UHGV virus genome: UHGV-0315882
Length of the DNA: 56,283 nucleotides
From: a virus
Direction: 5' to 3' (one strand)
Below the pieces are notes generated by a model, which was not told the DNA's origin, searched no databases, and worked only from the letters and a program-made list of their open reading frames with translations. The translations under genes and the position numbers were made by a program. Below are positions 4,032 to 43,780 of the stretch, one piece after another; position 1 is the first letter of the stretch; each line of letters opens with the position of its first letter.

Positions 4032-4817
4032 TTAGTTCTTTGCGTCTAAGAAGGTAAGCTCTGGTGAAGAGAAAACCGTCTCGATATCCTCATCAGTTCT
4101 TGCATAGATGTAAGCATCTGCATCACTGCCAAATGTTACTGCAATCCTGTGATTGCTCTTCGACAGGTGGGTAACTAGAGCGTTACTTAGAGACATCTTT
4201 TCAACCGGAGGGTTACTTTGATGTATCTTGCCTTTTCTTCGTCTGAAGAGGGTAACTACATCATTAGTGAACACTACTACACCAGCAAAGTATTCTGGTT
4301 CACAGTAGTTCTTCCAACCTGAGCGTAACTTGTGGTACATCTCTCCTTCATAGACATACAGATACACATCTACACTCTTCATCACCTGATTAATGATGAC
4401 TGTGACGGCTTGAGAGTCTAGTCCACCGATACCTGCACCAATCATAGGTAACCCAACTTTCTTCAACTGATTGACTTCACAGTATCTGTTAAGTTGTTTC
4501 AAAGATGATTCTAAAGCACTGTATCGGGCATCTTTACCAGTCTTAAGCTGAGTGTAAAGGTTAGCTATACGGCCTTGTTCTAAACGTGCTACAGAGAAAT
4601 TGCCTAGTAAATTTTCACAGGGTTTGTGACCTATGCCACCTGCATACAGATAAACTTCTGTATCGGTCTCATATGCTTTTGGGTAAAGTTTAGAAATCTT
4701 GTCAGCGATACCTGCACCCATTAAGTTCATACAGTTGCAACCGTGACCAATGATATCAAACTTACCTTTATCAAATGCGGAGAAGATATCCCCATTGATG
4801 ATTTTTACAATACCCAT
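4032..4817 (-). CDS. TARG1/OARD1-like macrodomain protein with unknown C-terminal domain (261 aa)
   Basis: N-terminal ~150 aa carry GDIF...HGCNCMNLMGAGIA...LPMIGAGIGGLD, matching TARG1-type macrodomain hallmarks recalled from memory; GGGAGAGA RBS. Confidence 0.6.
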   Translation of the reverse strand: MGIVKIINGDIFSAFDKGKFDIIGHGCNCMNLMGAGIADKISKLYPKAYETDTEVYLYAGGIGHKPCENLLGNFSVARLEQGRIANLYTQLKTGKDARYSALESSLKQLNRYCEVNQLKKVGLPMIGAGIGGLDSQAVTVIINQVMKSVDVYLYVYEGEMYHKLRSGWKNYCEPEYFAGVVVFTNDVVTLFRRRKGKIHQSNPPVEKMSLSNALVTHLSKSNHRIAVTFGSDADAYIYARTDEDIETVFSSPELTFLDAKN

Positions 4818-5244: not shown

Positions 5245-5551
5245 AGTTTACCTTCTCAGTTAGCTCATACAAGTCAACATGCTCAATGCTATCAATGTTG
5301 ATACCAATCTTTTTGAAGCGTTCTATCACTTCGTTGTCAGTCATCCATATCAGACACCAATGATTATGGATGGATTCTTCAAGAAGGTCAACACAGTCTT
5401 TAAAAGTTTTTGTATCACTTCTTGTTCCGACTACTGCGATTGTCCCATACAACCACTTACCATTGCCATAAGATACTTGTGCTACGCCAACTTCTTTATC
5501 TTTCTCGTAGTAAACGGCTACAAAGTCTCTTCCATTAATCTGCATAGTCAC
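5219..5551 (-). CDS. hypothetical protein (110 aa)
   Basis: ORF in tight same-strand array. Confidence 0.5.
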   Translation of the reverse strand: MTMQINGRDFVAVYYEKDKEVGVAQVSYGNGKWLYGTIAVVGTRSDTKTFKDCVDLLEESIHNHWCLIWMTDNEVIERFKKIGINIDSIEHVDLYELTEKVNYESNTSQR

Positions 5552-5817
5552 TTCCTCGTTTTAAGAACTGCTAAGATTTCTTTAGAGTCTGGTAAGAACC
5601 ATGTGTAGTGATTCTCTTTGATTTCTGGATGAGTGTCAACCTTTATTTTGCACTCTTTACCAACATGCTTAAGCTGTGCTGTGACACCTTGCATAAAGAT
5701 ATGACACATCACGTTATCCATAATGGTTGGTGAGAAATCAACCCGCATATAAGTTTCTTTTGGTCGTGGTAGCAGTAAATACCCTTCTACATAGAAAGTA
5801 TCTTCATTCTCTGTCAT
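5548..5817 (-). CDS. hypothetical protein (89 aa)
   Basis: ATGA start/stop overlap with the upstream gene. Confidence 0.5.
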   Translation of the reverse strand: MTENEDTFYVEGYLLLPRPKETYMRVDFSPTIMDNVMCHIFMQGVTAQLKHVGKECKIKVDTHPEIKENHYTWFLPDSKEILAVLKTRK

Positions 5818-6083
5818 TGCTGTTTGTTTCCTAATAAAATCATATCAATAAGGTTATTAGCTTTGATTGTGCACTGGTAAAAACCATCACGATAAAACTC
5901 AAGGGCTGCTGCCACATCACTACCAGTATTACCTTTGACAGTGAATCTTGACTCTTCTTGAGTGTACTTGTCACTCTCACTTACTTGGGAGTTTTTGAAT
6001 GTACTGTTCACTTTGTTCGTTGAACACCCTGACATAATTATCAGTAACACAAACATTATAAAACTCTGGCTTAGTCTTTTCAT
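5814..6083 (-). CDS. putative outer-membrane lipoprotein, o-spanin-like (89 aa)
   Basis: Signal peptide with lipobox-like IMSGC; start lies within the 3' end of the upstream membrane/coiled-coil gene, as in overlapping Rz/Rz1 pairs. Confidence 0.45.
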   Translation of the reverse strand: MKRLSQSFIMFVLLIIMSGCSTNKVNSTFKNSQVSESDKYTQEESRFTVKGNTGSDVAAALEFYRDGFYQCTIKANNLIDMILLGNKQQ

Positions 6084-6324
6084 ATGTTATTACCTCTTTT
6101 GTGTGCTTATTCTTAGCAAGCACATCTTTCAAATCATTTTTGTAATTGGTGCTGAGTGTGGCTAAACCTTCCTGATAAGCATCTTTGGCAACACTTATTA
6201 GTTTCTCATTATTTAGCTCAGCTTCAGCAACTTGGTAGTCTCTGTAAGAGTATCCTCCCCAGACACCTGCTCCAACTAAGAAAACAATTATGAAAGTAGC
6301 TTGGCAGAACTCTTTAAATGTCAT
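5977..6324 (-). CDS. putative i-spanin-like protein (115 aa)
   Basis: N-terminal transmembrane helix followed by a charged, helical periplasmic region; overlaps the lipoprotein gene. Confidence 0.45.
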   Translation of the reverse strand: MTFKEFCQATFIIVFLVGAGVWGGYSYRDYQVAEAELNNEKLISVAKDAYQEGLATLSTNYKNDLKDVLAKNKHTKEVITYEKTKPEFYNVCVTDNYVRVFNEQSEQYIQKLPSK

Positions 6325-6340
6325 TTAACAATCTCCTGAA

Positions 6341-6366
6341 ATGAAAAAGGCTCCCGAAGGAGCCTG
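6341..6366 (-). terminator. Intrinsic terminator
   Basis: GGCTCC-cgaa-GGAGCC stem-loop followed by a T-run on the minus strand. Confidence 0.6.
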
Positions 6367-6376
6367 TATCTTAACC

Positions 6377-6841
6377 TTAACTGAGGACTTTAGCAAGGAT
6401 ATTCGCAGCCATCGAAGAAGCTTTTGCAGCAGCAACTACGCCAGCTTTGACAGTGCCATCCTTAATAGCAGATACCGTTGCAGCATCAGTAAAGAGGTAA
6501 GTGATTGTTTTAGAACCACTTGTAAAGGAAAGCATAAGAGTAGTTTCCAGATTGAAAGAGCGATACGGAGCACCTTCTTTAACGATACCTTCAGCACCTA
6601 ACTCTGAAGCCTTACCCATATCATAAATAGTCATCAGGTTTTCTTTGTGTGCAGTCGTTGAACCAGCACCTTTTACGTGCTTTTTAACATTCAACAATGC
6701 ACGATATTCACGAATGCTGCCATCAGCTTTTACATTAACAGCACGAAAAATTTTACCTTCAAAGTTACCTTGAATCAATTTACGAACTACTACAGATTTG
6801 TTTGTCGTATCGTCCAGTGCTACCGTAATGATATTGTTCAT
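6377..6841 (-). CDS. hypothetical protein (154 aa)
   Basis: ORF with its own downstream terminator; Ala/Gly/Thr-rich. Confidence 0.55.
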   Translation of the reverse strand: MNNIITVALDDTTNKSVVVRKLIQGNFEGKIFRAVNVKADGSIREYRALLNVKKHVKGAGSTTAHKENLMTIYDMGKASELGAEGIVKEGAPYRSFNLETTLMLSFTSGSKTITYLFTDAATVSAIKDGTVKAGVVAAAKASSMAANILAKVLS

Positions 6842-6851
6842 AAGTTTTCTC

Positions 6852-7547
6852 TCAATGTTTAACTAACATGGTTTTAATGTGTGGAAGGATTCTGTTTACC
6901 TTCTGAACATTCATCTCTGTATCTTCTATAAAGCATACTATATTAAAGTAAGGAAGAATGCAAGACTGAATCATCCTAACTTTTAAACTTTCTGCACTTA
7001 TAGAGTTAGTTCCAAAACCACGCATGAAAAGCATGTAATCATGCTCTATGTAATGCCTTAAAAACATCTCAGTAGGTATTCTCTGAGATTCACCCCTCGC
7101 TGTCAAGAGTCCAATGGCAGCATGGTTAGCAATTGCATCAATAATATTGAAAACATACGTTGGTTTTGCTCTTACAGAGTCAAGCAAATTAGTGTACTGT
7201 GAAAATGACCCATCAATCAATTCTGTTGAGCAATCTTCGTGATTAAAATTTGTAAGAACACCATCAATATCTGCTAAGATGAGGTTACCTTTTTCTACAA
7301 GGTCTTTATTGACTATGACTAAGCTGTCACGCCTTACACCTATAGTTTGTCCAGTCTCTTTATCTACAACATTCACAATTGTCTCTGATGTGTGGAACTC
7401 TTCGAGTGAACATACAACTTCTCTTGCGGTGTCTTCAAAATCCCTACACTGTTCTGGAGTCCATACACAGGAATCAAGACCTAACTCATGAGGATGTAAG
7501 TCATAAGCATGACACAGTACTTCATCAGACTTTCTTAATTTTTTCAT
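6852..7547 (-). CDS. HAD-family phosphatase, 5'(3')-deoxyribonucleotidase-like (231 aa)
   Basis: ILADIDGVLTNF matches HAD motif I (DxDGV) as in NT5C-type nucleotidases. Confidence 0.45.
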   Translation of the reverse strand: MKKLRKSDEVLCHAYDLHPHELGLDSCVWTPEQCRDFEDTAREVVCSLEEFHTSETIVNVVDKETGQTIGVRRDSLVIVNKDLVEKGNLILADIDGVLTNFNHEDCSTELIDGSFSQYTNLLDSVRAKPTYVFNIIDAIANHAAIGLLTARGESQRIPTEMFLRHYIEHDYMLFMRGFGTNSISAESLKVRMIQSCILPYFNIVCFIEDTEMNVQKVNRILPHIKTMLVKH

Positions 7548-8073
7548 GATTTACCTTAGAAATGTTTGTTGCAAATTCACATTGAGCAATAACTTTCATG
7601 TTGTTATAAACATCTTGAGAATATTTCTTAGCTTTAGGGATTTTGTACGAGTACCCAGCATTATATGATGCTAAAACTTTTTGTAAAGTCTTCTTTGACT
7701 TTGGTTGACCATGTACCTTCGTCCAAAACTCAAGCTCTTTGTGTGTTTCCTTTGCAGCATAGTCAAAGTCTTTTAAGAGTTTCTTTTTAGCCACATTAGG
7801 ACTGATTTTGTTACGCTTTACAACAGTCTTCAAGTGATTCTGGAAAATACCATAATCATGTGTCTTTTTATTCTCTACCTTCAGACCTAACTCTGACTCT
7901 TGTAAGGCTATAGCAGCTAGAGTGATACCCCAACCTTTACCCATATTATTCTCACCATACTGGTAAGCTTTTAACATGTTTACTTTTTGGCTAATTGATA
8001 GCTCTGGGCAGTCAACTGCATAAGATAAGTGTGCTGTAAACATTAAGCACAAACCTAGAATCAATTTCTTCAT
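7525..8073 (-). CDS. Lytic transglycosylase (SLT domain) with N-terminal signal peptide; putative secreted endolysin (182 aa)
   Basis: Signal peptide MKKLILGLCLMFTAHLSYA; SLT-like motifs ALQESELG, YGIFQ, SYNAGY. Confidence 0.6.
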   Translation of the reverse strand: MKKLILGLCLMFTAHLSYAVDCPELSISQKVNMLKAYQYGENNMGKGWGITLAAIALQESELGLKVENKKTHDYGIFQNHLKTVVKRNKISPNVAKKKLLKDFDYAAKETHKELEFWTKVHGQPKSKKTLQKVLASYNAGYSYKIPKAKKYSQDVYNNMKVIAQCEFATNISKVNHEKIKKV

Positions 8074-8132
8074 TGGTTCTCCTGTTTAGTTTATCGTGAC
8101 AACAATTATACAGCACTCTGCACAAAATACAA

Positions 8133-8162
8133 ATAAAAAAGGCCGCCGAAGCAGCCTTTTAA
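8133..8162 (-). terminator. Intrinsic terminator
   Basis: Imperfect GC stem (GGCCGC/GCAGCC) flanked by A6 and T4 runs. Confidence 0.5.
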
Positions 8163-8173
8163 GAAATTACTTA

Positions 8174-9283
8174 TTAGATTTCACGTTTACGTTGGGAGAT
8201 AAGTTCTCCAGCAGTACCGACGATGACATGTAGAGCTTCAGTCTTACCATCCCATGCTTTCAGTACTTTACGTTGATTATCAACGATTGCTGCAACTTCA
8301 TAACGAGACGAGCGCATCTTCATATCGTTGTAATCAGTTGGTACGGATACAACGTCTCGTGGATGGACACGAACCTTCAGAATTGTATCACCTGAGAAGT
8401 AACGAACATAATCCCAAGCACCAACGTGAAGACCTTGAGAGCAAGTCACGTTACGGTTATTATCAACCATCCAACGTGGCATTTCTACAATGTTACCCAA
8501 ATCATTAGGTACTTTGCAGGTGCGGGAGTCAACCAGCTTGCCTTCACGAGTAGAGACTTTCTTCCAACCAATGATGTAGCCTTCTTCATCAATTTCAACA
8601 TCAAGGTGAGATATGAATCCCCAAAGTTGTTCTACAGAATCTTTAGATGGGTTTTCCATCAGTTTTTCGAAGAACATTACAAGTCGTTCAAAACCTTTAT
8701 CACCAGTCTTCATCATGTGAAGGATACGGTCAACCAGAGTAGAACGCATCTCAACAGCACCGTAGAATAGCTTATCACCTTTGATTGTGATAGCTCCCTG
8801 CGTGAAGTTTTCGATAGACTTACGAATGTTCATCAGTTCAAAGGCTTTCTTGAACTCACCTTTCACAACATGAACTACAATCTCTTGATAGTTCGGATGA
8901 GTAGACTCAACAATTTCAGATTCTGAACCGTAAGTCATAATTACAGAGTCACCAGTAATCATGTACTCAATCTTGTCATCTTTCTGCATAGCTTCGTGCA
9001 GTTTATTTACTGGAGCTTTCTGTACAGCGTCTTTAACTACCTTTTCAACTGGTTTTCCAGCTTTCTTCTTAAAGGTCTTAGCAACTTGCTTCAAAGTCTT
9101 CGTAGCTGGTGTAGAAGTCACCTTCTTATTCCCTTTTAAGGTTGCTTCATGACGCTCTACAGCACGACCGACTGAACGGGTTGAAGTATTAAATTTCTGT
9201 GCAATAGCTGTTTTAGTCAGCTTACCTTCTTTAACCAGTTTGTAAATTTCTGCGTCAATCTGTGCTTTAGTTTTAGTAGTCAT
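8174..9283 (-). CDS. rIIB: rIIB-like protein (369 aa)
   Basis: Immediately downstream of the rIIA-like gene (conserved rIIA-rIIB order); positional assignment only. Confidence 0.4.
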   Translation of the reverse strand: MTTKTKAQIDAEIYKLVKEGKLTKTAIAQKFNTSTRSVGRAVERHEATLKGNKKVTSTPATKTLKQVAKTFKKKAGKPVEKVVKDAVQKAPVNKLHEAMQKDDKIEYMITGDSVIMTYGSESEIVESTHPNYQEIVVHVVKGEFKKAFELMNIRKSIENFTQGAITIKGDKLFYGAVEMRSTLVDRILHMMKTGDKGFERLVMFFEKLMENPSKDSVEQLWGFISHLDVEIDEEGYIIGWKKVSTREGKLVDSRTCKVPNDLGNIVEMPRWMVDNNRNVTCSQGLHVGAWDYVRYFSGDTILKVRVHPRDVVSVPTDYNDMKMRSSRYEVAAIVDNQRKVLKAWDGKTEALHVIVGTAGELISQRKREI

Positions 9284-9362: not shown

Positions 9363-11729
9363 TTAATCGTAAATTGTAGTCCCTTCTGGAACACATTTTA
9401 CATCAAAACCTAAGAACTTACTCACTTCGATGGGTGACACTTTATTCCAATCTAAATGAGAAAGCAAGAAGTTTTCTTGTTTTCTTTTTGAAAGGTAGTT
9501 TGTCACCTTAATGACCATGCGGTCACCAGCTTTCTTAATTTTCTTGTAAAGCTTTGTATCATTGTCAAGGCATTCTTTCAAAGTTTGCAATCTACTAACA
9601 GTGTAAGTGTATGCAAACGGTGCAGCAACGTATTGGATTTTACCGAACATTGCCTCTACAGCCTCTTCATTACCTTCTAGGAAGATAGTTTTGTTTGTAT
9701 CCCGTGAATAGCAATAACCACGAGAAATCTTCCTATTATTGAATGTAAAGTTTCTGGCAATAATCCAGCTACTTGTAAGGTCAAGAACACCATTCATGTA
9801 GATGCGTGTCATATACCTGTTATGATTAATCCAATGAACATCAGTTAAGCTGTCGTTCAAGAGCTTCTCATCTACTTCAATCCAGTCTTCTGGTATCTTT
9901 TTCCAATTTGCTTTTCGGAAAACATAAACTGTCTTTCCAATAACATTAGCAACTGACTTAGCTACATCTTCTGGAGATGAGCAAAAACATCTACCATCAA
10001 CTGTGTCACCAACTGCCTTAATATAAAGCTGAGGTTCTTCAATTGTGTCTAAGTCTTCTGACACCTCTTTGTATGAAGCTACAGATTCTGCTGGAACAGC
10101 TTTCCATAGTTTTACAACACCTCTCACAGCCTCTTTACGCTGATAATGATGCTCCTTATCAGACATTTTCACAATCTTTAACAAGCTTTTATCAAGTTTG
10201 TGTAGATTGATTAAATCATCTAACTCTTTTTCAGTCGAGAATACAAACACAATACCATTGTATCTGTGGAACAGGCCTGACTCGTTAGCGTAGTCTCGAC
10301 ATGCACCACGCAAGATTTGATTTCGTCCTACAGTCTTCTCAGTGCCATTTTTATTGCGACGGTCATTAATCACGAACAAAAACTGTTCAATTTGGCTTTT
10401 ACGCATTGCACCAAAGATATTGAACATACTTGCCTCTTGAGTGTAGGAAAGTGCTGTTGCACGAATCTCACTCTCTAAAGAGTTGAACTTGACATAAGCA
10501 ACTGGGTCATAAAGGTAATCTACTTTAGGGATGTTGTTTCCGTTCCTATCAACCTTAATATTACCTTTACCGTCACGCTCATAAATGACTGAGCCGTCTT
10601 CTGCGTAGATAATCCCGCGACGAATGTTTAGCAACTCTTCTTCCAGAGAATCAAGCTTAACGCCTCCCCACTCTAGCTTTGGACACACAGCATTAAACAT
10701 TTCTCGTGAGTTCAAACGCAACTCAGCATAAGCCTGTGCAGCATCCATGAGTGTGGGCTGATTGTTAATCTTTTTGATAACATCCTTTGTAATGGCTTCA
10801 GTTATCTTTTTAGTAGCCTCAATGATAACATTTTTTGTCGTGTCATTCATCTGCAATGCTTCACGAGAAGCTGCAATAGCAACTGAACCAATAGGCATGT
10901 AGATGTTTACAAGGTCTACGCTCCTACGGAAAAACTCTGGCAATACTTTGAAGAAATCATCGCCAAGTAATGCTTCCATATTAACAGGGTAGGCAATGTT
11001 ACCCATCACCACATTAAACTCTGTCCTGTTATCACTAGAACGCCAGCTGTGCTTATGAATCATGGCATCATAAACACCTTCTTCACGGGCAATGACGTTC
11101 ATATCTGCTAATACATCGTTGTACTCAATATTACTTTCTGGTTTTACAGTGAAGTATGAGTACACATTCCCAGCTTCTTCAAAGAACTTTGAGATACGGT
11201 GGTCAGCAACTGCCACACGTACAGCTAAACCATTAGGTTCTTTTGTTGGGTTAGTTGTCAGCTTAGTTACTTGAGGGATACCATTCTCAAGATAAACAGA
11301 GTACTTATTAACAACACCGTCAACATAACTAGATACTGTGAATGACTGAGCAATTGCAAATGGTGACTTTGAGCCGATACCCATTGCACCAATGTAGTCA
11401 TTAGAGTCGTTCTTCGTAGAAGCTCCATAGTTTAGGTACAGACTCATAACTTTATCATGAGTCAATCCAGTTCCAAAATCACGAACTTCGAAGTAAGGCT
11501 CAAAACGAGTAGGTAAATGCACATGGAATGGGATGTTCTCTTTTCCAGCTTCTTTCTGAGCATCCACTGCGTTACATGACAGTTCACGAATCACTGCCCT
11601 TTCTTTAAAGGTGTATACACCAGAACTCAAAAGGCTGAACATCTCAGGTGTCATTGTAATCTGTGCTTGAGACGTCTCTAAAGAAGTTGAACTCTTAATC
11701 ACTTCTGCGTGGTCATTTACCATGCGCAT
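9363..11729 (-). CDS. rIIA: rIIA-like protein with GHKL/HATPase-type ATPase domain (788 aa)
   Basis: N-terminal motifs ELSCNAVDA, RDFGTGL, GAMGIGSKS resemble the GHKL ATPase fold of rIIA. Confidence 0.6.
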   Translation of the reverse strand: MRMVNDHAEVIKSSTSLETSQAQITMTPEMFSLLSSGVYTFKERAVIRELSCNAVDAQKEAGKENIPFHVHLPTRFEPYFEVRDFGTGLTHDKVMSLYLNYGASTKNDSNDYIGAMGIGSKSPFAIAQSFTVSSYVDGVVNKYSVYLENGIPQVTKLTTNPTKEPNGLAVRVAVADHRISKFFEEAGNVYSYFTVKPESNIEYNDVLADMNVIAREEGVYDAMIHKHSWRSSDNRTEFNVVMGNIAYPVNMEALLGDDFFKVLPEFFRRSVDLVNIYMPIGSVAIAASREALQMNDTTKNVIIEATKKITEAITKDVIKKINNQPTLMDAAQAYAELRLNSREMFNAVCPKLEWGGVKLDSLEEELLNIRRGIIYAEDGSVIYERDGKGNIKVDRNGNNIPKVDYLYDPVAYVKFNSLESEIRATALSYTQEASMFNIFGAMRKSQIEQFLFVINDRRNKNGTEKTVGRNQILRGACRDYANESGLFHRYNGIVFVFSTEKELDDLINLHKLDKSLLKIVKMSDKEHHYQRKEAVRGVVKLWKAVPAESVASYKEVSEDLDTIEEPQLYIKAVGDTVDGRCFCSSPEDVAKSVANVIGKTVYVFRKANWKKIPEDWIEVDEKLLNDSLTDVHWINHNRYMTRIYMNGVLDLTSSWIIARNFTFNNRKISRGYCYSRDTNKTIFLEGNEEAVEAMFGKIQYVAAPFAYTYTVSRLQTLKECLDNDTKLYKKIKKAGDRMVIKVTNYLSKRKQENFLLSHLDWNKVSPIEVSKFLGFDVKCVPEGTTIYD

Positions 11730-11758: not shown

Positions 11759-11935
11759 CACTTATTAAACATTTTACCAGAACCGCCACACATAGGGCAA
11801 CAACCTGCTCTTGTATAACCTTCCCCATTACAGAAGTCACATTTTTTGTGTTCTGCATAGTACTTGCAAAGAAGGTAAACGAACACTGCTACACTACCAA
11901 GTGACAGTAAAATTTCTATCCAATATGCTTGCATG
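11759..11935 (-). CDS. small membrane-anchored zinc-finger protein (58 aa, below the ORF-track threshold)
   Basis: Hand translation MQAYWIEILLSLGSVAVFVYLLCKYYAEHKKCDFCNGEGYTRAGCCPMCGGSGKMFNK: hydrophobic helix plus two CxxCxGxG repeats; GAGAGG RBS. Confidence 0.4.
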
Positions 11936-12251
11936 ACTCACCTCTCATATTTTTGTAAAGGATAAAGCTTCTGTCATGAACGATACTTGTAGATACTGCA
12001 AAGTTACTTTCAAGCATCTGTTTGTTTGGATTGTAGAAGCTTTCTTTAAACTCGTCAAGTGCAAACTGGTGATGTTGTGGAAGACCTTTTACACAAACCT
12101 TTATTGTGATTGCTGCTGCAACCTTTCCAGTCAGTTCTTCTTTAGCTGCTACTAAAATTTTGTTGAGGAACTTATGGCCATCTTCAGGCTTCTTGATGTT
12201 CTCCCAACGTTCTTCTAAGATAATGTTGATGTTCATTTCTTTGATTTTCAT
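11916..12251 (-). CDS. hypothetical protein (111 aa)
   Basis: ORF downstream of terminator 12269-12291. Confidence 0.5.
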   Translation of the reverse strand: MKIKEMNINIILEERWENIKKPEDGHKFLNKILVAAKEELTGKVAAAITIKVCVKGLPQHHQFALDEFKESFYNPNKQMLESNFAVSTSIVHDRSFILYKNMRGESCKHIG

Positions 12252-20534: not shown

Positions 20535-20741
20535 TTAAATCTTTTTAGAAAACTTCGAAACGAGTTTTCTTAGTTTTTCAGTGATGCCTAACTGTATCTC
20601 TAATATTTCAAAGATAACCCATAGTAACATGGCCCCAAACAATGAACCTTGTTCAAAATCAGTAAATAGGTTAACAATCAGCATACCAATCACAATGGCT
20701 GGTGCATCAACAACCAGACCTTCCCAAAGGCGTTTAAGCAT
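20535..20741 (-). CDS. small membrane protein (68 aa)
   Basis: Two hydrophobic helices; possible holin-like protein (speculative). Confidence 0.4.
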   Translation of the reverse strand: MLKRLWEGLVVDAPAIVIGMLIVNLFTDFEQGSLFGAMLLWVIFEILEIQLGITEKLRKLVSKFSKKI

Positions 20742-43213: not shown

Positions 43214-43585
43214 TTATTTTTCAGTATTCTTTGTGTTCTTTTCAGTAATAGCTTGGAGGGCTGATACTGATTGAGCCAGATTATTCACACTGTCAGAGAA
43301 TTTATCAAGGGTTTTAGTAAGTTTTGCGTTTTCACCCTTAACATTCTCTAACTGAACTTTCTGGTTCTCCATCCCTAGCTGAATCAGTCTCATGTCAGAC
43401 TGTAAATCACGAATAGCTGAATAGTTACTTTTGGAATAATTATCTAGCTGCTGTAACTTTGTTGTGACAGACACTTCTTGTTTACCACTTGAAACTTGCA
43501 TAGTGGTATACATCCCAATAACACTAAAAATACCAACTACAATTGCACCAATATTATTTTTAAAAGCTTCCTCTAGCCACTTCAT
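43214..43585 (-). CDS. membrane-anchored coiled-coil protein (123 aa)
   Basis: N-terminal transmembrane helix then heptad-like region. Confidence 0.45.
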   Translation of the reverse strand: MKWLEEAFKNNIGAIVVGIFSVIGMYTTMQVSSGKQEVSVTTKLQQLDNYSKSNYSAIRDLQSDMRLIQLGMENQKVQLENVKGENAKLTKTLDKFSDSVNNLAQSVSALQAITEKNTKNTEK

Positions 43586-43780
43586 TTATTTCTCCCCCTT
43601 AAAAGCTTTTTCTAAGTTATCTACGAACTCATCATCAATAGGTGTGTCTGTTTTACTCGCAAGGTATCTTGCAAGCTTAAAGAACACTTTCTCAATCATG
43701 TATTCACTTAGAAGGGATAAAATGAGTTTCCAGAAGAAGCTACCTAGATTTTTTAGAAGAATTGCTAGGATTGTAGGCAT
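43586..43780 (-). CDS. small membrane protein (64 aa)
   Basis: Hydrophobic N-terminus; GAGGTGAT RBS. Confidence 0.4.
   Translation of the reverse strand: MPTILAILLKNLGSFFWKLILSLLSEYMIEKVFFKLARYLASKTDTPIDDEFVDNLEKAFKGEK

What the first reader, a model, noticed from the sequence alone, without database searches (positions are those of the whole stretch)
5814..8073. Candidate lysis functions: overlapping spanin-like pair and Sec-signal lytic transglycosylase
ORF 5977-6324 (N-terminal membrane helix plus helical periplasmic domain) overlaps by ~107 nt the start of a lipoprotein ORF (5814-6083, lipobox-like IMSGC), the embedded/overlapping geometry of Rz/Rz1-type spanins. Two genes upstream is an SLT-domain transglycosylase with a cleavable signal peptide. 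No holin is obvious nearby. The candidates are small membrane proteins at 20535-20741 and 43586-43780.
Basis: partly seen in the sequence, partly recalled or inferred. Interest (0 to 1): 0.4.

Follow-up and report, generated by a model that had tools for sequence, protein, structure and literature searches.

The report
Felix O1-type spanin pair plus Vs.1-like transglycosylase
This stretch of a Felix O1-like phage genome carries the overlapping pair of genes that breaks the host's outer membrane at lysis, already catalogued for this phage group, and a separate exported cell-wall-cutting enzyme that matches phage T4's untested Vs.1 protein and is probably not the main lysis enzyme.

Summary
The window is a Felixounavirus genome segment, about 98% identical to Escherichia phages ULIM9, ECP2307 and EC6.

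- **Spanin pair.** ORF 5977-6324(-) has an N-terminal membrane helix. ORF 5814-6083(-) starts 107 nt before its end, in the +1 frame, and has a rule-conforming lipoprotein signal (IIMSG|C20, Ser at +2).
  - It is the only lipobox ORF in the 56 kb.
  - It is under purifying selection in its own frame (dN/dS 0.02-0.03).
  - Relatives whose i-spanin is only 28-39% identical keep the same overlapping geometry. One of them has the pair in a holin-endolysin-spanin cassette.
  - Kongari et al. 2018 list Felix O1 among overlapped spanins, and many GenBank records annotate the pair.
- **SLT protein.** ORF 7525-8073(-) has a GH23/SLT fold, all catalytic motifs and a Sec-type leader.
  - It is the orthologue of T4 Vs.1 (32% identity, E 2e-16), whose function is untested.
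  - Relatives encode a separate soluble lysozyme endolysin that lies outside this window, so the SLT protein is not the only muralytic enzyme.
  - It was not detected in the Felix O1 virion proteome.
- **Holin.** The gene relatives annotate as putative holin is 43214-43585(-).

Low interest.

The parts
5977..6324 (-). i-spanin gene (115 aa): N-terminal TMD at residues 6-24, periplasmic domain with a single conserved Cys92 in the motif F-x-N-x-C-x-[ST]-[DE]-x-Y-x3-FN
   Evidence: (phrog_1152 Rz-like spanin, E 3.7e-42)
5814..6083 (-). o-spanin gene (89 aa): SPase II signal, lipobox M-S-G-C (Cys20), Ser at +2, conserved Cys71. Overlaps the i-spanin gene by 107 nt in the +1 frame
6024..6035 (-). 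codons for the lipobox MSGC (residues 17-20 of the o-spanin), inside the i-spanin reading frame
6093..6098 (-). Shine-Dalgarno AAGAGG, 9 nt upstream of the o-spanin ATG, inside the i-spanin gene
   Evidence: Moogle annotates an RBS at the same place
6348..6365 (-). terminator-like hairpin AGGCTCC-TTCG-GGAGCCT followed by a T run, between the 154-aa gene and the i-spanin. Same as terminator t5 of the Felix O1 paper
7525..8073 (-). exported GH23/SLT-type peptidoglycan-cleaving enzyme (182 aa), orthologue of T4 Vs.1. Leader at residues 1-19, catalytic Glu59-Ser60, G75-x-F-Q78, S136-Y-N-A-G140, Y151, Cys22/Cys165 pair
8137..8160 (-). terminator-like hairpin (10-bp stem, TTCG loop, T run) between rIIB and the SLT gene. 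Same as t2 of the Felix O1 paper
8105..8110 (-). perfect TATAAT hexamer 31 nt upstream of the SLT ATG (weak -35). A possible own promoter, inferred only
6852..7547 (-). context gene: 'polynucleotide kinase' family phrog_3970 (231 aa). It resembles only the HAD phosphatase part of T4 PseT. Not a lysis gene
6377..6841 (-). context gene: 154-aa protein of unknown function (phrog_2267, weak WYL_2 match)
43214..43585 (-). gene annotated 'holin' or 'putative holin' in relatives (123 aa, one TMD at residues 11-29 plus a long polar C-terminal domain). Untested. Last gene of the tail-fibre transcription unit
No TMD passes KD 1.6
Lies between nrdD and a glutaredoxin-like gene

Best explanation
The locus holds two unrelated envelope functions of a Felix O1-like myophage whose lysis genes are scattered, as in T4.

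**(1) A two-component spanin of the overlapped architecture (5977-6324 and 5814-6083).**
- The i-spanin is anchored in the inner membrane by its N-terminal helix.
- The o-spanin is exported, lipidated at Cys20 and sorted to the outer membrane (Ser at +2).
- The two C-terminal domains bind across the periplasm. Each carries one conserved Cys, presumably for disulfide-linked oligomers.
- After holin and endolysin have acted, the complex fuses or disrupts the outer membrane.
- The sequence features, the selection signal and the conserved pairing are shown here. Complex formation and membrane disruption are inferred from the lambda and T4 paradigms.

**(2) A Sec-exported, single-domain GH23/SLT-type peptidoglycan-cleaving enzyme (7525-8073), the orthologue of T4 Vs.1.**
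- It is most likely released into the periplasm by signal peptidase I and stabilised by a Cys22-Cys165 disulfide.
- It probably acts as an accessory cell-wall-cleaving or remodelling enzyme, not as the phage's endolysin. The endolysin is a soluble lysozyme encoded outside this window.
- The fold, the catalytic motifs, the leader and the orthology are shown here. Export, activity and biological role are inferred.
For: **Identity of the phage**
- 256 Felixounavirus-type records cover at least 80% of the region, the best at 97.9% identity.

**Spanins**
- PHROG 1152 'Rz-like spanin', E 3.7e-42.
- Many relatives annotate an I-spanin/O-spanin at the same place.
- Kongari et al. 2018 list (Felix01, FO1a, UAB_phi87) under overlapped spanins. 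The Moogle paper names i- and o-spanin.
- The TMD and lipobox rules are met, and this is the only lipobox ORF in the window.
- The part of the lipoprotein ORF that does not overlap shows 18 synonymous against 4 non-synonymous differences versus Felix O1 (dN/dS 0.03), and 20 against 3 versus adrianh (0.017). The other two frames give values above 1.5.
- Substitution density in the 107-nt overlap is less than half that of the flanks: 0.10 against 0.25 and 0.24 versus Moogle.
- In LPML1, Kuravirus 172-1, Erwinia M7 and SUSP1 (i-spanin 28-75% identical), a +1-frame lipobox ORF overlaps the i-spanin 3' end by 107-137 nt and carries the same C-terminal motif.
- In Yersinia phage 324 the pair sits in a holin / endolysin / i-spanin / o-spanin cassette.
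- Felix O1 ORF6 is transcribed, peaking at 25 min together with the lysin ORF35.

**SLT protein**
- Glu59 and Tyr137 are invariant. Gly140 and Tyr151 are kept in 169, and Ser60 in 162, of 170 aligned family members.
- 144 of 158 full-length members have a hydrophobic leader.
- Cys22 co-occurs with Cys165 in 40 of 42 cases.
- The AF2 model has pLDDT 84.8.
- Foldseek top hits are all GH23: g-type lysozyme, GH23 chitinase, EtgA, MltF, Slt and phiKZ gp144. Viral SLT proteins match at TM 0.65-0.77.
- BLASTP to T4 Vs.1 gives E 2e-16, and the family HMM gives E 4e-35.
- The Felix O1 ORF3 note reads 'protein in vs-regB intergenic region'.

**Endolysin elsewhere**
- Felix O1 gp35 carries Phage_lysozyme. 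Moogle gp91 is a soluble lysozyme with no match in this window.
- ORF3, ORF6 and ORF7 are not among the virion proteins.
Against: - No experiment on these proteins exists in the literature I could search.
- The i-spanin structure prediction was unusable (pLDDT 48), so the helical or coiled-coil periplasmic domain is not confirmed.
- There is no sequence similarity to the tested spanins T4 PseT.3/PseT.2. Pfam scans returned no spanin family at all.
- The lipobox has Met at -3, which lies outside the strict [LVI] consensus.
- The SLT match to Pfam PF01464 is below the curated threshold (18.8 against 21.3 bits), and PDB fold E-values are weak (6.5e-3, TM about 0.5).
- The 'accessory, not endolysin' reading rests on the presence of another lysozyme gene, not on any test.
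- SignalP and LipoP were not available. Signal predictions are rule-based.
Confidence: 0.8

Rival explanations
1. The SLT protein is a genuine lysis enzyme. It would be a signal-peptide endolysin that accumulates in the periplasm in a restrained state and is unleashed when the holin depolarises the membrane. It would act alone or together with the soluble lysozyme.
For: - It has a Sec-type leader plus an intact SLT catalytic site.
- There are two precedents. Fletchervirus F352 Lys (188 aa, signal peptide plus SLT) needs Sec and a holin. Kayvirus Tgl is an extra, early-transcribed, secreted transglycosylase beside the main endolysin LysK.
- Felix O1 ORF3 peaks at 25 min, like the lysin ORF35.
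- Phage adrianh and UniRef label it 'putative lysin' or 'Lysin'.
Against: - F352 Lys does not match the Vs.1-family HMM, so the precedent is an analogue, not a relative.
- T4 and the Felix O1-like phages have a canonical soluble endolysin besides the Vs.1-type protein (and general T4 knowledge).
- The gene sits behind rIIA-rIIB, not near the holin, endolysin or spanin genes. In L016 it keeps the rIIB/PNK neighbours, but no spanin-type lipoprotein ORF is found on the gene strand of that locus.
- The 'lysin' labels are inferred from the domain only.
Confidence: 0.3
2. The SLT protein is a virion-associated peptidoglycan hydrolase used to pierce the wall during DNA injection.
For: SLT/GH23 domains are common in virion proteins such as T7 gp16, PRD1 P7 and tape-measure fusions. 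Such proteins appear among the weaker fold hits.
Against: - It has a cleavable-type export leader, which is incompatible with cytoplasmic virion assembly, and the leader is kept across the family.
- It is not among the 17 structural proteins found by mass spectrometry in Felix O1.
- It lies in the rII/nucleotide-metabolism region, far from the structural genes.
- It is a small single-domain protein.
Confidence: 0.03
3. The membrane protein and the lipoprotein are not spanins. They would be some other envelope function, for example a superinfection-exclusion lipoprotein of the T5 Llp or Cor type with an unrelated membrane partner.
For: - No functional test exists.
- The mature o-spanin (69 aa) is longer and far less proline-rich than lambda Rz1.
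- The genes are not next to a holin or endolysin in this genome.
Against: - The strict pairing and overlap are kept across very divergent phages.
- A homologous pair sits inside a holin-endolysin cassette in a P2-like phage.
- One conserved periplasmic Cys in each partner fits the near-universal (507 of 528) presence of periplasmic Cys in two-component spanins reported.
- No other spanin candidate exists in the window: there is only one lipobox ORF.
- T4 spanins are also remote from t and e.
Confidence: 0.05
4. The 5814-6083 ORF is a chance open frame and is not translated.
For: - Many gene callers truncate or omit it (73-, 68- and 65-aa versions).
- ORF7 is not listed in the Felix O1 RT-PCR table.
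Against: - dN/dS is 0.02-0.03 in its own frame and above 1.5 in the other frames.
- The substitution rate is depressed in the overlap.
- A Shine-Dalgarno is present.
- The lipobox and C-terminal motif are conserved in relatives whose partner is only 28-39% identical.
Confidence: 0.01

Closest known systems
Felix O1 ORF6/ORF7 and Citrobacter phage Moogle gp122/gp121 (i-spanin / o-spanin; 'overlapped' class in Kongari et al. 2018)
   Same: Orthologues. The gene sizes are the same (348 and 270 nt), as are the 107-nt overlap, the frame offset, the lipobox position and the neighbours. Protein identity is 96.5% (i-spanin, to FO1a) to Felix O1 and 76-82% to Moogle.
   Different: Nothing of substance. 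A few amino-acid substitutions only.
Phage P2 LysB/LysC and lambda Rz/Rz1 (experimentally studied two-component spanins)
   Same: The same functional design: a type II inner-membrane protein plus an outer-membrane lipoprotein encoded in the +1 frame of its 3' part, with periplasmic cysteines. The overlapped layout is that of P2 (from the literature).
   Different: - Pfam scans returned no spanin family.
- Lambda Rz1 is wholly embedded and proline-rich, with a 40-aa mature form. Here the mature lipoprotein is 69 aa, has no proline, and extends 163 nt beyond the i-spanin stop.
- The genes are not in a lysis cassette.
T4 PseT.3 / PseT.2 spanins
   Same: Similar sizes (117 and 99 aa against 115 and 89 aa). 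They are remote from the holin and endolysin genes and lie next to a PNK-type gene: T4 has pseT.3-pseT.2-pseT.1-pseT, and here the order is PNK-like, 154 aa, i-spanin, o-spanin.
   Different: - Separated, not overlapped.
- No sequence similarity (BLASTP E 17 and 8.3).
- Opposite order relative to the PNK gene.
- T4 has both cysteines in the o-spanin and none in the i-spanin. Here there is one in each.
T4 Vs.1 (ORF between regB and vs; 181 aa, function unknown)
   Same: Orthologue of the SLT protein: 32% identity over 174 aa, E 2e-16, and HMM E 4e-35. The length, the Sec-type leader and the QES, G-x-F-Q and SYN-x-G motifs are the same. Its marginal SLT similarity was noted in 2006 and in the Felix O1 GenBank note.
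   Different: The genomic neighbours differ: regB and vs in T4, rIIB and the PNK-like gene here. T4 Vs.1 lacks the Cys22/Cys165 pair.
Specialised small secreted lytic transglycosylases and g-type lysozymes (GH23), e.g. EtgA of the EPEC type III secretion system
   Same: A single GH23 domain of about 150-190 aa behind a signal peptide. The predicted fold matches.
   Different: Only about 15% identity and TM about 0.5. There is no associated secretion machine. Whether the product is a 1,6-anhydro-muropeptide (transglycosylase) or a hydrolysis product (lysozyme) cannot be told from sequence.
Signal-peptide endolysins: Fletchervirus F352 Lys. Extra secreted transglycosylase: Kayvirus Tgl
   Same: A Sec leader plus a transglycosylase-type domain in a large virulent myophage with dispersed lysis genes. 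Tgl coexists with a main endolysin and is transcribed early.
   Different: F352 Lys is not detectably related to the Vs.1 family. In F352 it is the only endolysin, whereas here a soluble lysozyme exists as well.

Membership tests
Two-component spanin (functional class) | i-spanin: small protein with one N-terminal transmembrane helix and a periplasmic C-terminal domain | tested here: met
   Hydrophobic segment at residues 6-24, KD 1.75, with no other TMD. It is conserved in homologues.
Two-component spanin (functional class) | i-spanin periplasmic domain is helical or coiled-coil | tested here: inconclusive
   The AF2 model is mostly helical but has a mean pLDDT of 48.3. No coiled-coil predictor was available.
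Two-component spanin (functional class) | o-spanin: lipoprotein signal with a lipobox Cys | tested here: met
   The PS51257-type rule is met with Cys20. Met at -3 is atypical. LipoP was not available.
Two-component spanin (functional class) | outer-membrane sorting (no Asp at +2 after the lipidated Cys) | tested here: met
   The sequence reads C20-S21-T22. The same CST follows the lipobox Cys in all compared homologues, including Yersinia phage 324.
Two-component spanin (functional class) | o-spanin gene embedded in, overlapping, or directly following the i-spanin gene | tested here: met
   107-nt overlap in the +1 frame. Divergent relatives have 107-137 nt overlaps.
Two-component spanin (functional class) | at least one periplasmic cysteine (intermolecular disulfides) | tested here: met
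   Cys92 in the i-spanin and Cys71 in the o-spanin are both kept in all divergent homologues.
Two-component spanin (functional class) | linked to holin and endolysin genes in at least some genomes | tested here: met
   Yersinia phage 324 has holin, metallopeptidase, I-spanin, O-spanin in order. This is not the case in this genome, where lysis genes are scattered.
Two-component spanin (functional class) | required for outer-membrane disruption; complements lambda Rz/Rz1 | not testable with these tools
   Needs genetics.
Spanin sequence families of tested phages (Pfam spanin families; T4 PseT.3/PseT.2) | significant sequence match | tested here: not met
   Pfam scans returned no spanin family at E up to 0.1. 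BLASTP to T4 PseT.3 and PseT.2 gives E 17 and 8.3.
PHROG 1152 (Rz-like spanin) | profile match | tested here: met
   E 3.7e-42 over the full length. The o-spanin matches phrog_4180 (unlabelled) at 8.7e-51 and phrog_456 'Rz-like spanin' at 6e-5.
GH23 / SLT domain (Pfam PF01464) | Pfam profile above the gathering threshold | tested here: not met
   18.8 bits against a cut-off of 21.3, E 0.0012. Several homologues do carry precomputed PF01464 hits.
GH23 / SLT domain (Pfam PF01464) | catalytic Glu-Ser motif plus the G-x-x-Q and A/S-Y-N-x-G motifs and the conserved Tyr | tested here: met
   E59 170/170, S60 162/170, G75 164/170, Y137 170/170, G140 169/170, Y151 169/170.
GH23 / SLT domain (Pfam PF01464) | lysozyme-like GH23 fold | tested here: met
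   The AF2 model has pLDDT 84.8. All top PDB hits are GH23 enzymes at probability 1.0, though with E of 6.5e-3 or worse and TM about 0.5. Viral SLT proteins match at E down to 1.7e-9.
GH23 / SLT domain (Pfam PF01464) | muralytic activity that produces 1,6-anhydro-MurNAc | not testable with these tools
   Needs biochemistry.
T4 Vs.1 family | full-length sequence homology | tested here: met
   BLASTP E 2e-16, 32% identity. The family HMM matches T4 Vs.1 at E 4e-35. The Felix O1 ORF3 note agrees.
Signal-peptide (Sec) endolysin | cleavable N-terminal signal peptide | tested here: inconclusive
   The n-region (KK), h-region (11 hydrophobic residues) and c-region (S-Y-A) fit the -3/-1 rule. The leader is present in 144 of 158 family members. 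Residues 1-19 are disordered in the model, and the Cys22/Cys165 pair covaries. No SignalP run or cleavage evidence is available.
Signal-peptide (Sec) endolysin | is the phage's endolysin (required for lysis, holin-triggered) | not testable with these tools
   The indirect evidence points against it. A soluble lysozyme endolysin exists in Felix O1 and Moogle, and F352 Lys is unrelated to this family.
Virion-associated peptidoglycan hydrolase | present in purified virions | tested here: not met
   ORF3 is not among the Felix O1 structural proteins identified by mass spectrometry (from the literature). This is literature evidence, not a test run here.
Holin (candidates 43214-43585, 43586-43780, 20535-20741) | small membrane protein with at least one TMD and a charged C-terminus | tested here: inconclusive
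   - 20535-20741: 2 TMDs and a basic tail.
- 43214-43585: 1 TMD plus an ~85-residue polar domain.
- 43586-43780: no segment reaches KD 1.6.
- All three match PHROGs of unknown function. The 'holin' labels in relatives are inferred.

The most novel reading that the evidence does not exclude
The Vs.1-type protein would be a conserved, Sec-exported auxiliary peptidoglycan-cleaving enzyme. It is shared by T4-like, Felix O1-like, Vi1-like (Kuttervirus), KVP40-like and some jumbo phages (2129 phage records, 255 clusters at 50% identity). It would have a real, so far unrecognised role in infection, for example weakening or remodelling the sacculus before holin triggering. That would affect lysis timing, lysis completeness or cell enlargement during lysis inhibition. 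It would be a Gram-negative counterpart of Kayvirus Tgl.
Probability: 0.3. Interest if true: 0.45.

Novelty: already known. Interest (0 to 1): 0.15.

Why it matters
There is little new here. The spanin pair is an orthologue of an already catalogued Felix O1 pair. The SLT similarity of the Vs.1 family was reported in 2006.

The analysis has two practical uses.

- **Annotation.** Many Felixounavirus records truncate the o-spanin to 65-73 aa, which cuts off its lipoprotein signal, or they omit it. The correct start is the ATG at 6083, with its own Shine-Dalgarno.
- **An open question.** It shows that a widespread, strictly conserved, exported GH23 enzyme of large virulent myophages, T4 Vs.1 included, still has no tested function, although T4 genetics makes it easy to test.

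Tried and rejected
- **PDB sequence search with the SLT protein.** No hit, even at E up to 10.
- **NCBIfam scan.** Nothing meaningful for any of the eight proteins.
- **AF2 model of the i-spanin.** Built from a shallow alignment. pLDDT was 48, so it was discarded.
- **Are the Felix-type spanins diverged T4 PseT.3/PseT.2?** This was suggested by the shared PNK neighbourhood. No similarity was found. The 'PNK' here matches only the HAD-phosphatase half of T4 PseT, and weakly.
- **Is the Fletchervirus F352 signal-peptide endolysin in the Vs.1 family?** No. It does not pass the family HMM.
- **Are the non-phage-labelled homologues bacterial (VirB1-like)?** The 'Campylobacter coli' one sits in a jumbo-phage-like contig with a chimallin gene. 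Another is in a distant Ounavirinae-like contig. No secretion-system context was seen.
- **Is the endolysin in the window?** No. There was no tblastn match to the Moogle lysozyme.
- **Literature on vs.1 function.** Only the 2006 comparative paper turned up.
- **Sigma-70 scan.** It gives no more promoter-like sites than shuffled sequence does (27 against 20.7 +/- 4.5). Promoter statements are therefore weak.

Full report
**What the window is.** A megablast of 5500-8300 finds 258 phage records. Of these, 256 cover at least 80% of the query, and the best are 97-98% identical (Escherichia phages vB_EcoM_ULIM9, ECP2307, EC6). All belong to Felixounavirus or its sister genera. All genes in the 4-12 kb part run on the minus strand. 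In the direction of transcription the order is:

| Gene | Coordinates |
|---|---|
| rIIA | 9363-11729 |
| rIIB | 8174-9283 |
| SLT-like ORF | 7525-8073 |
| 'polynucleotide kinase' family protein | 6852-7547 |
| 154-aa protein | 6377-6841 |
| membrane protein | 5977-6324 |
| lipoprotein ORF | 5814-6083 |
| further small genes | below 5814 |

This is gene for gene the order ORF1-ORF8 of Felix O1 and gp126-gp120 of Citrobacter phage Moogle.

**The observation.**
- The 115-aa product of 5977-6324 has one hydrophobic segment (residues 6-24) and no other.
- The 89-aa ORF 5814-6083 begins 107 nt before the end of that gene, in the +1 frame, behind an AAGAGG Shine-Dalgarno.
- Its N-terminus MKRLSQSFIMFVLLIIMSG-C20 satisfies the PROSITE-type lipoprotein rule, and Ser follows the Cys, so there is no inner-membrane retention signal.
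- I scanned all 970 start codons in the window that open ORFs of at least 50 aa, on both strands. This is the only one that passes the rule.
- Shuffled sequence yields about one such hit per window. The lipobox alone is therefore not significant, and the argument rests on what follows.

**Is the lipoprotein ORF a real gene?** I compared the 511-nt two-gene block with Felix O1, adrianh, Moogle and SUSP1.
- The part of the lipoprotein ORF that lies beyond the i-spanin stop has 18 synonymous against 4 non-synonymous differences versus Felix O1 (dN/dS 0.03). Versus adrianh it has 20 against 3 (dN/dS 0.017).
- Read in either other frame, the same DNA gives ratios above 1.5.
- The 107-nt overlap accumulates substitutions at less than half the rate of the two single-coding flanks. 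The figures are 0.10 against 0.25 and 0.24 per site versus Moogle, and 0.019 against 0.062 and 0.135 versus Felix O1. This is what double coding constraint predicts.

Distant relatives of the membrane protein were found by tblastn in 403 phage records.
- In a Felix-like phage labelled 'Listeria phage LPML1' (39% identity), Kuravirus 172-1 (36%), Erwinia phage M7 (28%) and SUSP1 (75%), a +1-frame ORF with a lipobox overlaps the 3' end by 107-137 nt.
- The partners share motifs. In the membrane protein it is F-x-N-x-C-x-[ST]-[DE]-x-Y-x3-FN. In the lipoprotein it is E-[FYW]-[YW]-[RQ]-x2-[FY]-x2-C-x5-N-x-L. Each motif contains a single conserved cysteine.
- In the P2-like Yersinia phage vB_YenM_324 the homologous pair sits in a holin / metallopeptidase / I-spanin / O-spanin cassette. 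There the annotated o-spanin start is too far downstream. The in-frame upstream sequence reads LLMNMSGCSTK, the same lipobox.

**Is it known?** Yes.
- PHROG 1152 ('Rz-like spanin') matches the membrane protein at E 3.7e-42.
- JN01, ECP2307, CRP22, Shy, adrianh, Moogle, Mijalis, Sf14 and others annotate I-spanin/O-spanin at this place.
- The Moogle announcement states that Felix O1-like phages have an endolysin, an i-spanin, an o-spanin and a putative holin scattered around the genome.
- Kongari et al. 2018 list (Felix01, FO1a, UAB_phi87) among overlapped spanin families.

By sequence the pair does not belong to the tested T4 families. Pfam scans returned no spanin family for either protein, and BLASTP against T4 PseT.3 and PseT.2 is at noise level. 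So it works like a spanin by every sequence-level criterion I could test, but its function has not been tested experimentally in any paper I could find.

**The SLT protein.** The Pfam SLT match is below threshold (18.8 against 21.3 bits), but the assignment is sound.
- An exhaustive HMMER search found 255 clusters (50% identity level) at E up to 1e-3.
- In an alignment of 170 members, Glu59 and Tyr137 are invariant. Ser60, Gly75, Gly140 and Tyr151 are kept in 95-99%. These are the E-S, G-x-x-Q, Y-N-x-G and Tyr motifs of family 1 lytic transglycosylases.
- The AF2 model (pLDDT 84.8) hits only GH23 enzymes at the top of the PDB list: cod and ostrich g-type lysozyme, Ralstonia GH23 chitinase, the type III secretion transglycosylase EtgA, MltF, Campylobacter Slt and phiKZ gp144. 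The E-values are modest (6.5e-3 and worse) and TM is about 0.5.
- It also hits viral 'SLT domain' proteins at E down to 1.7e-9 and TM 0.65-0.77.
- Sequence alone cannot say whether the enzyme is a transglycosylase or a hydrolase.

The leader also looks genuine.
- MKKLILGLCLMFTAHLSYA|VD has the n, h and c regions and small residues at -3 and -1.
- 144 of 158 full-length family members have a hydrophobic leader.
- Residues 1-19 are the only disordered N-terminal part of the model.
- Cys22 and Cys165 co-occur in 40 of 42 sequences that have the first one, as expected for a periplasmic disulfide.

**What the SLT protein is related to.**
- Its tblastn homologues occur in 2129 phage records: Felix O1-like, T4-like, Kuttervirus, KVP40-like and Aeromonas T4-like phages.
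- In T4-like Yersinia phage phiD1 the homologue lies between the regB-sized and vs-sized genes upstream of tk. In T4 itself that gene is vs.1.
- The window protein aligns to T4 Vs.1 over 174 residues at 32% identity, E 2e-16. The family HMM scores T4 Vs.1 at E 4e-35.
- The Felix O1 GenBank note for ORF3 already says 'hypothetical 20.7 KD protein in vs-regB intergenic region'.
- Nolan et al. 2006 reported the marginal SLT match of vs.1 in six T4-like genomes and suggested 'some role in cell lysis'.
- I found no later functional work.

**Is it a lysis enzyme?**

Evidence against it being the endolysin:
- Felix O1 has a Phage_lysozyme-type lysin, gp35. Moogle has a soluble lysozyme, gp91, with no N-terminal hydrophobic segment. 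T4 has gene e, from general knowledge. The window simply does not include that gene.
- The SLT gene follows rIIB after a strong hairpin terminator (8160-8137). It has its own TATAAT (8110-8105) and AGGAG.
- In a distant Ounavirinae-like contig (protein 37% identical) the order rIIA, rIIB, small membrane protein, SLT, PNK-like is kept. However, no spanin-type lipobox ORF was found on the gene strand of that locus, which reaches 5 kb past the SLT gene. SLT and the spanins are therefore not a unit.

Evidence for a contribution to lysis:
- There are two precedents. The Fletchervirus F352 endolysin is a 188-aa signal-peptide SLT protein that needs Sec and a holin. Kayvirus Tgl is an additional secreted transglycosylase transcribed like an early gene beside the main endolysin.
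- F352 Lys is not detectably related to the Vs.1 family, so these are analogues only.
- In the coarse RT-PCR table of the Felix O1 paper, ORF3, ORF4 and ORF6 peak at 25 min, together with the lysin ORF35.

ORF3 is not among the 17 structural proteins found by mass spectrometry, and an export leader is hard to reconcile with cytoplasmic assembly.

My reading is an exported accessory peptidoglycan-cleaving enzyme of untested role. I put about 0.3 on a true contribution to lysis.

**Holin.** The Moogle 'putative holin' gp54 maps to 43214-43585(-) at 91% identity.
- It is annotated holin or putative holin in many relatives. It corresponds by position to Felix O1 gp79, one of the five holin candidates of Whichard et al..
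- It has one TMD and an ~85-residue polar, probably helical C-terminal domain. Its PHROG has no function label.
It belongs to phrog_402 (unknown function), has homologues in RB49-like and other phages, and has no segment reaching KD 1.6.
- Candidate 20535-20741 has two TMDs and a basic C-terminus. It lies between nrdD and a glutaredoxin-like gene and belongs to an unlabelled PHROG.
- None of the three has experimental support.

**Verdict.** The spanin reading is supported and already known. The SLT-plus-signal reading is supported at the domain level, but its assignment to lysis is unproven and it is not the endolysin. The three genes do not form a cassette. Interest is low. The one open thread is the untested function of the widespread Vs.1 family.

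Noticed in passing
window 5814-6083 (-); L002 6315-6512; L006 5538-5759; proteins P0192-P0208: Many public records and gene callers start the o-spanin too far downstream, giving 73-, 68- or 65-aa versions. One 73-aa cluster has 303 members. The 73-aa version begins at Met17 of the full protein, so it lacks the signal peptide. Others omit the gene altogether (for example, vB_Si_DR094 is reported to have 'only the i-spanin'). The full 89-aa form with the ATG at 6083 is the one under selection.
   Followed up: partly
window 6852-7547 (-): The protein is labelled 'polynucleotide kinase' in relatives (phrog_3970). It aligns only weakly to T4 PseT, and only over PseT's C-terminal part (residues 158-289) with the D-x-D-G-x-L motif (DIDGVL against DVDGTL). 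No match to the N-terminal part was seen. A distant homologue has a faint HAD_PNKP Pfam hit. The kinase label may be an over-annotation.
   Followed up: partly
window 4032-4817 (-): A 261-aa macro-domain protein ('phosphatase') is homologous to T4 Tk.4 (34% identity, E 4e-24) and has an extra C-terminal extension of about 100 aa. Together with rIIA, rIIB and Vs.1 it is part of a set of T4 early-region homologues clustered in Felix O1-like genomes.
   Followed up: partly
window 8137-8160 (-) and 6348-6365 (-): Two strong TTCG-loop hairpins, each followed by a T run, sit directly in front of the SLT gene and the i-spanin gene. They are terminators t2 and t5 of the Felix O1 paper. The i-spanin ATG is only about 20 nt after the second one, so spanin expression needs read-through or a transcript that starts upstream of the hairpin. 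How this works is unknown.
   Followed up: partly
window 43214-43585 (-): The gene annotated 'holin' in relatives has an i-spanin-like layout: one N-terminal TMD plus a long, probably coiled-coil domain. It gives a weak hit to an 'Rz-like spanin' PHROG (phrog_739, E 0.009). Its holin assignment is inference only.
   Followed up: partly
window 11761-11937 (-): A small protein upstream of rIIA has one TMD followed by a Cys-rich, zinc-ribbon-like tail (CDFCNGEG...CCPMCGGSG). It is homologous to Moogle gp2 and is annotated 'membrane protein' in ECP2307. Function unknown.
   Followed up: no
L016 5678-5905 (metagenomic Ounavirinae-like contig): In a distant relative, a 75-aa two-TMD membrane protein is inserted between rIIB and the SLT gene. 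A small membrane protein next to an exported muramidase is reminiscent of a pinholin-endolysin pair. This is a single example and was not examined further.
   Followed up: no
hits H21/H69 (MG065668 'Campylobacter phage A126'), H86 (OK283618 'Listeria phage LPML1'), and one 'Staphylococcus' record: Several records with Felix O1-type sequence, carrying Gram-negative spanins, are labelled as phages of Campylobacter, Listeria or Staphylococcus. A Gram-positive host is implausible for a phage with an outer-membrane spanin. The host labels are probably wrong, or the samples were mixed.
   Followed up: no
window 6341-6601 (+): An 86-aa plus-strand ORF antisense to the 154-aa gene is annotated as a CDS in phage JN01. 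It overlaps a conserved minus-strand gene and is probably a spurious call.
   Followed up: no
L014 (contig ACBEZJ010000004.1 of GCA_053226485.1, labelled Campylobacter coli): A Vs.1-family member deposited as a bacterial protein lies two genes upstream of a chimallin (phiKZ nucleus shell) homologue. The 214-kb contig therefore looks like a jumbo phage, not chromosome.
   Followed up: no
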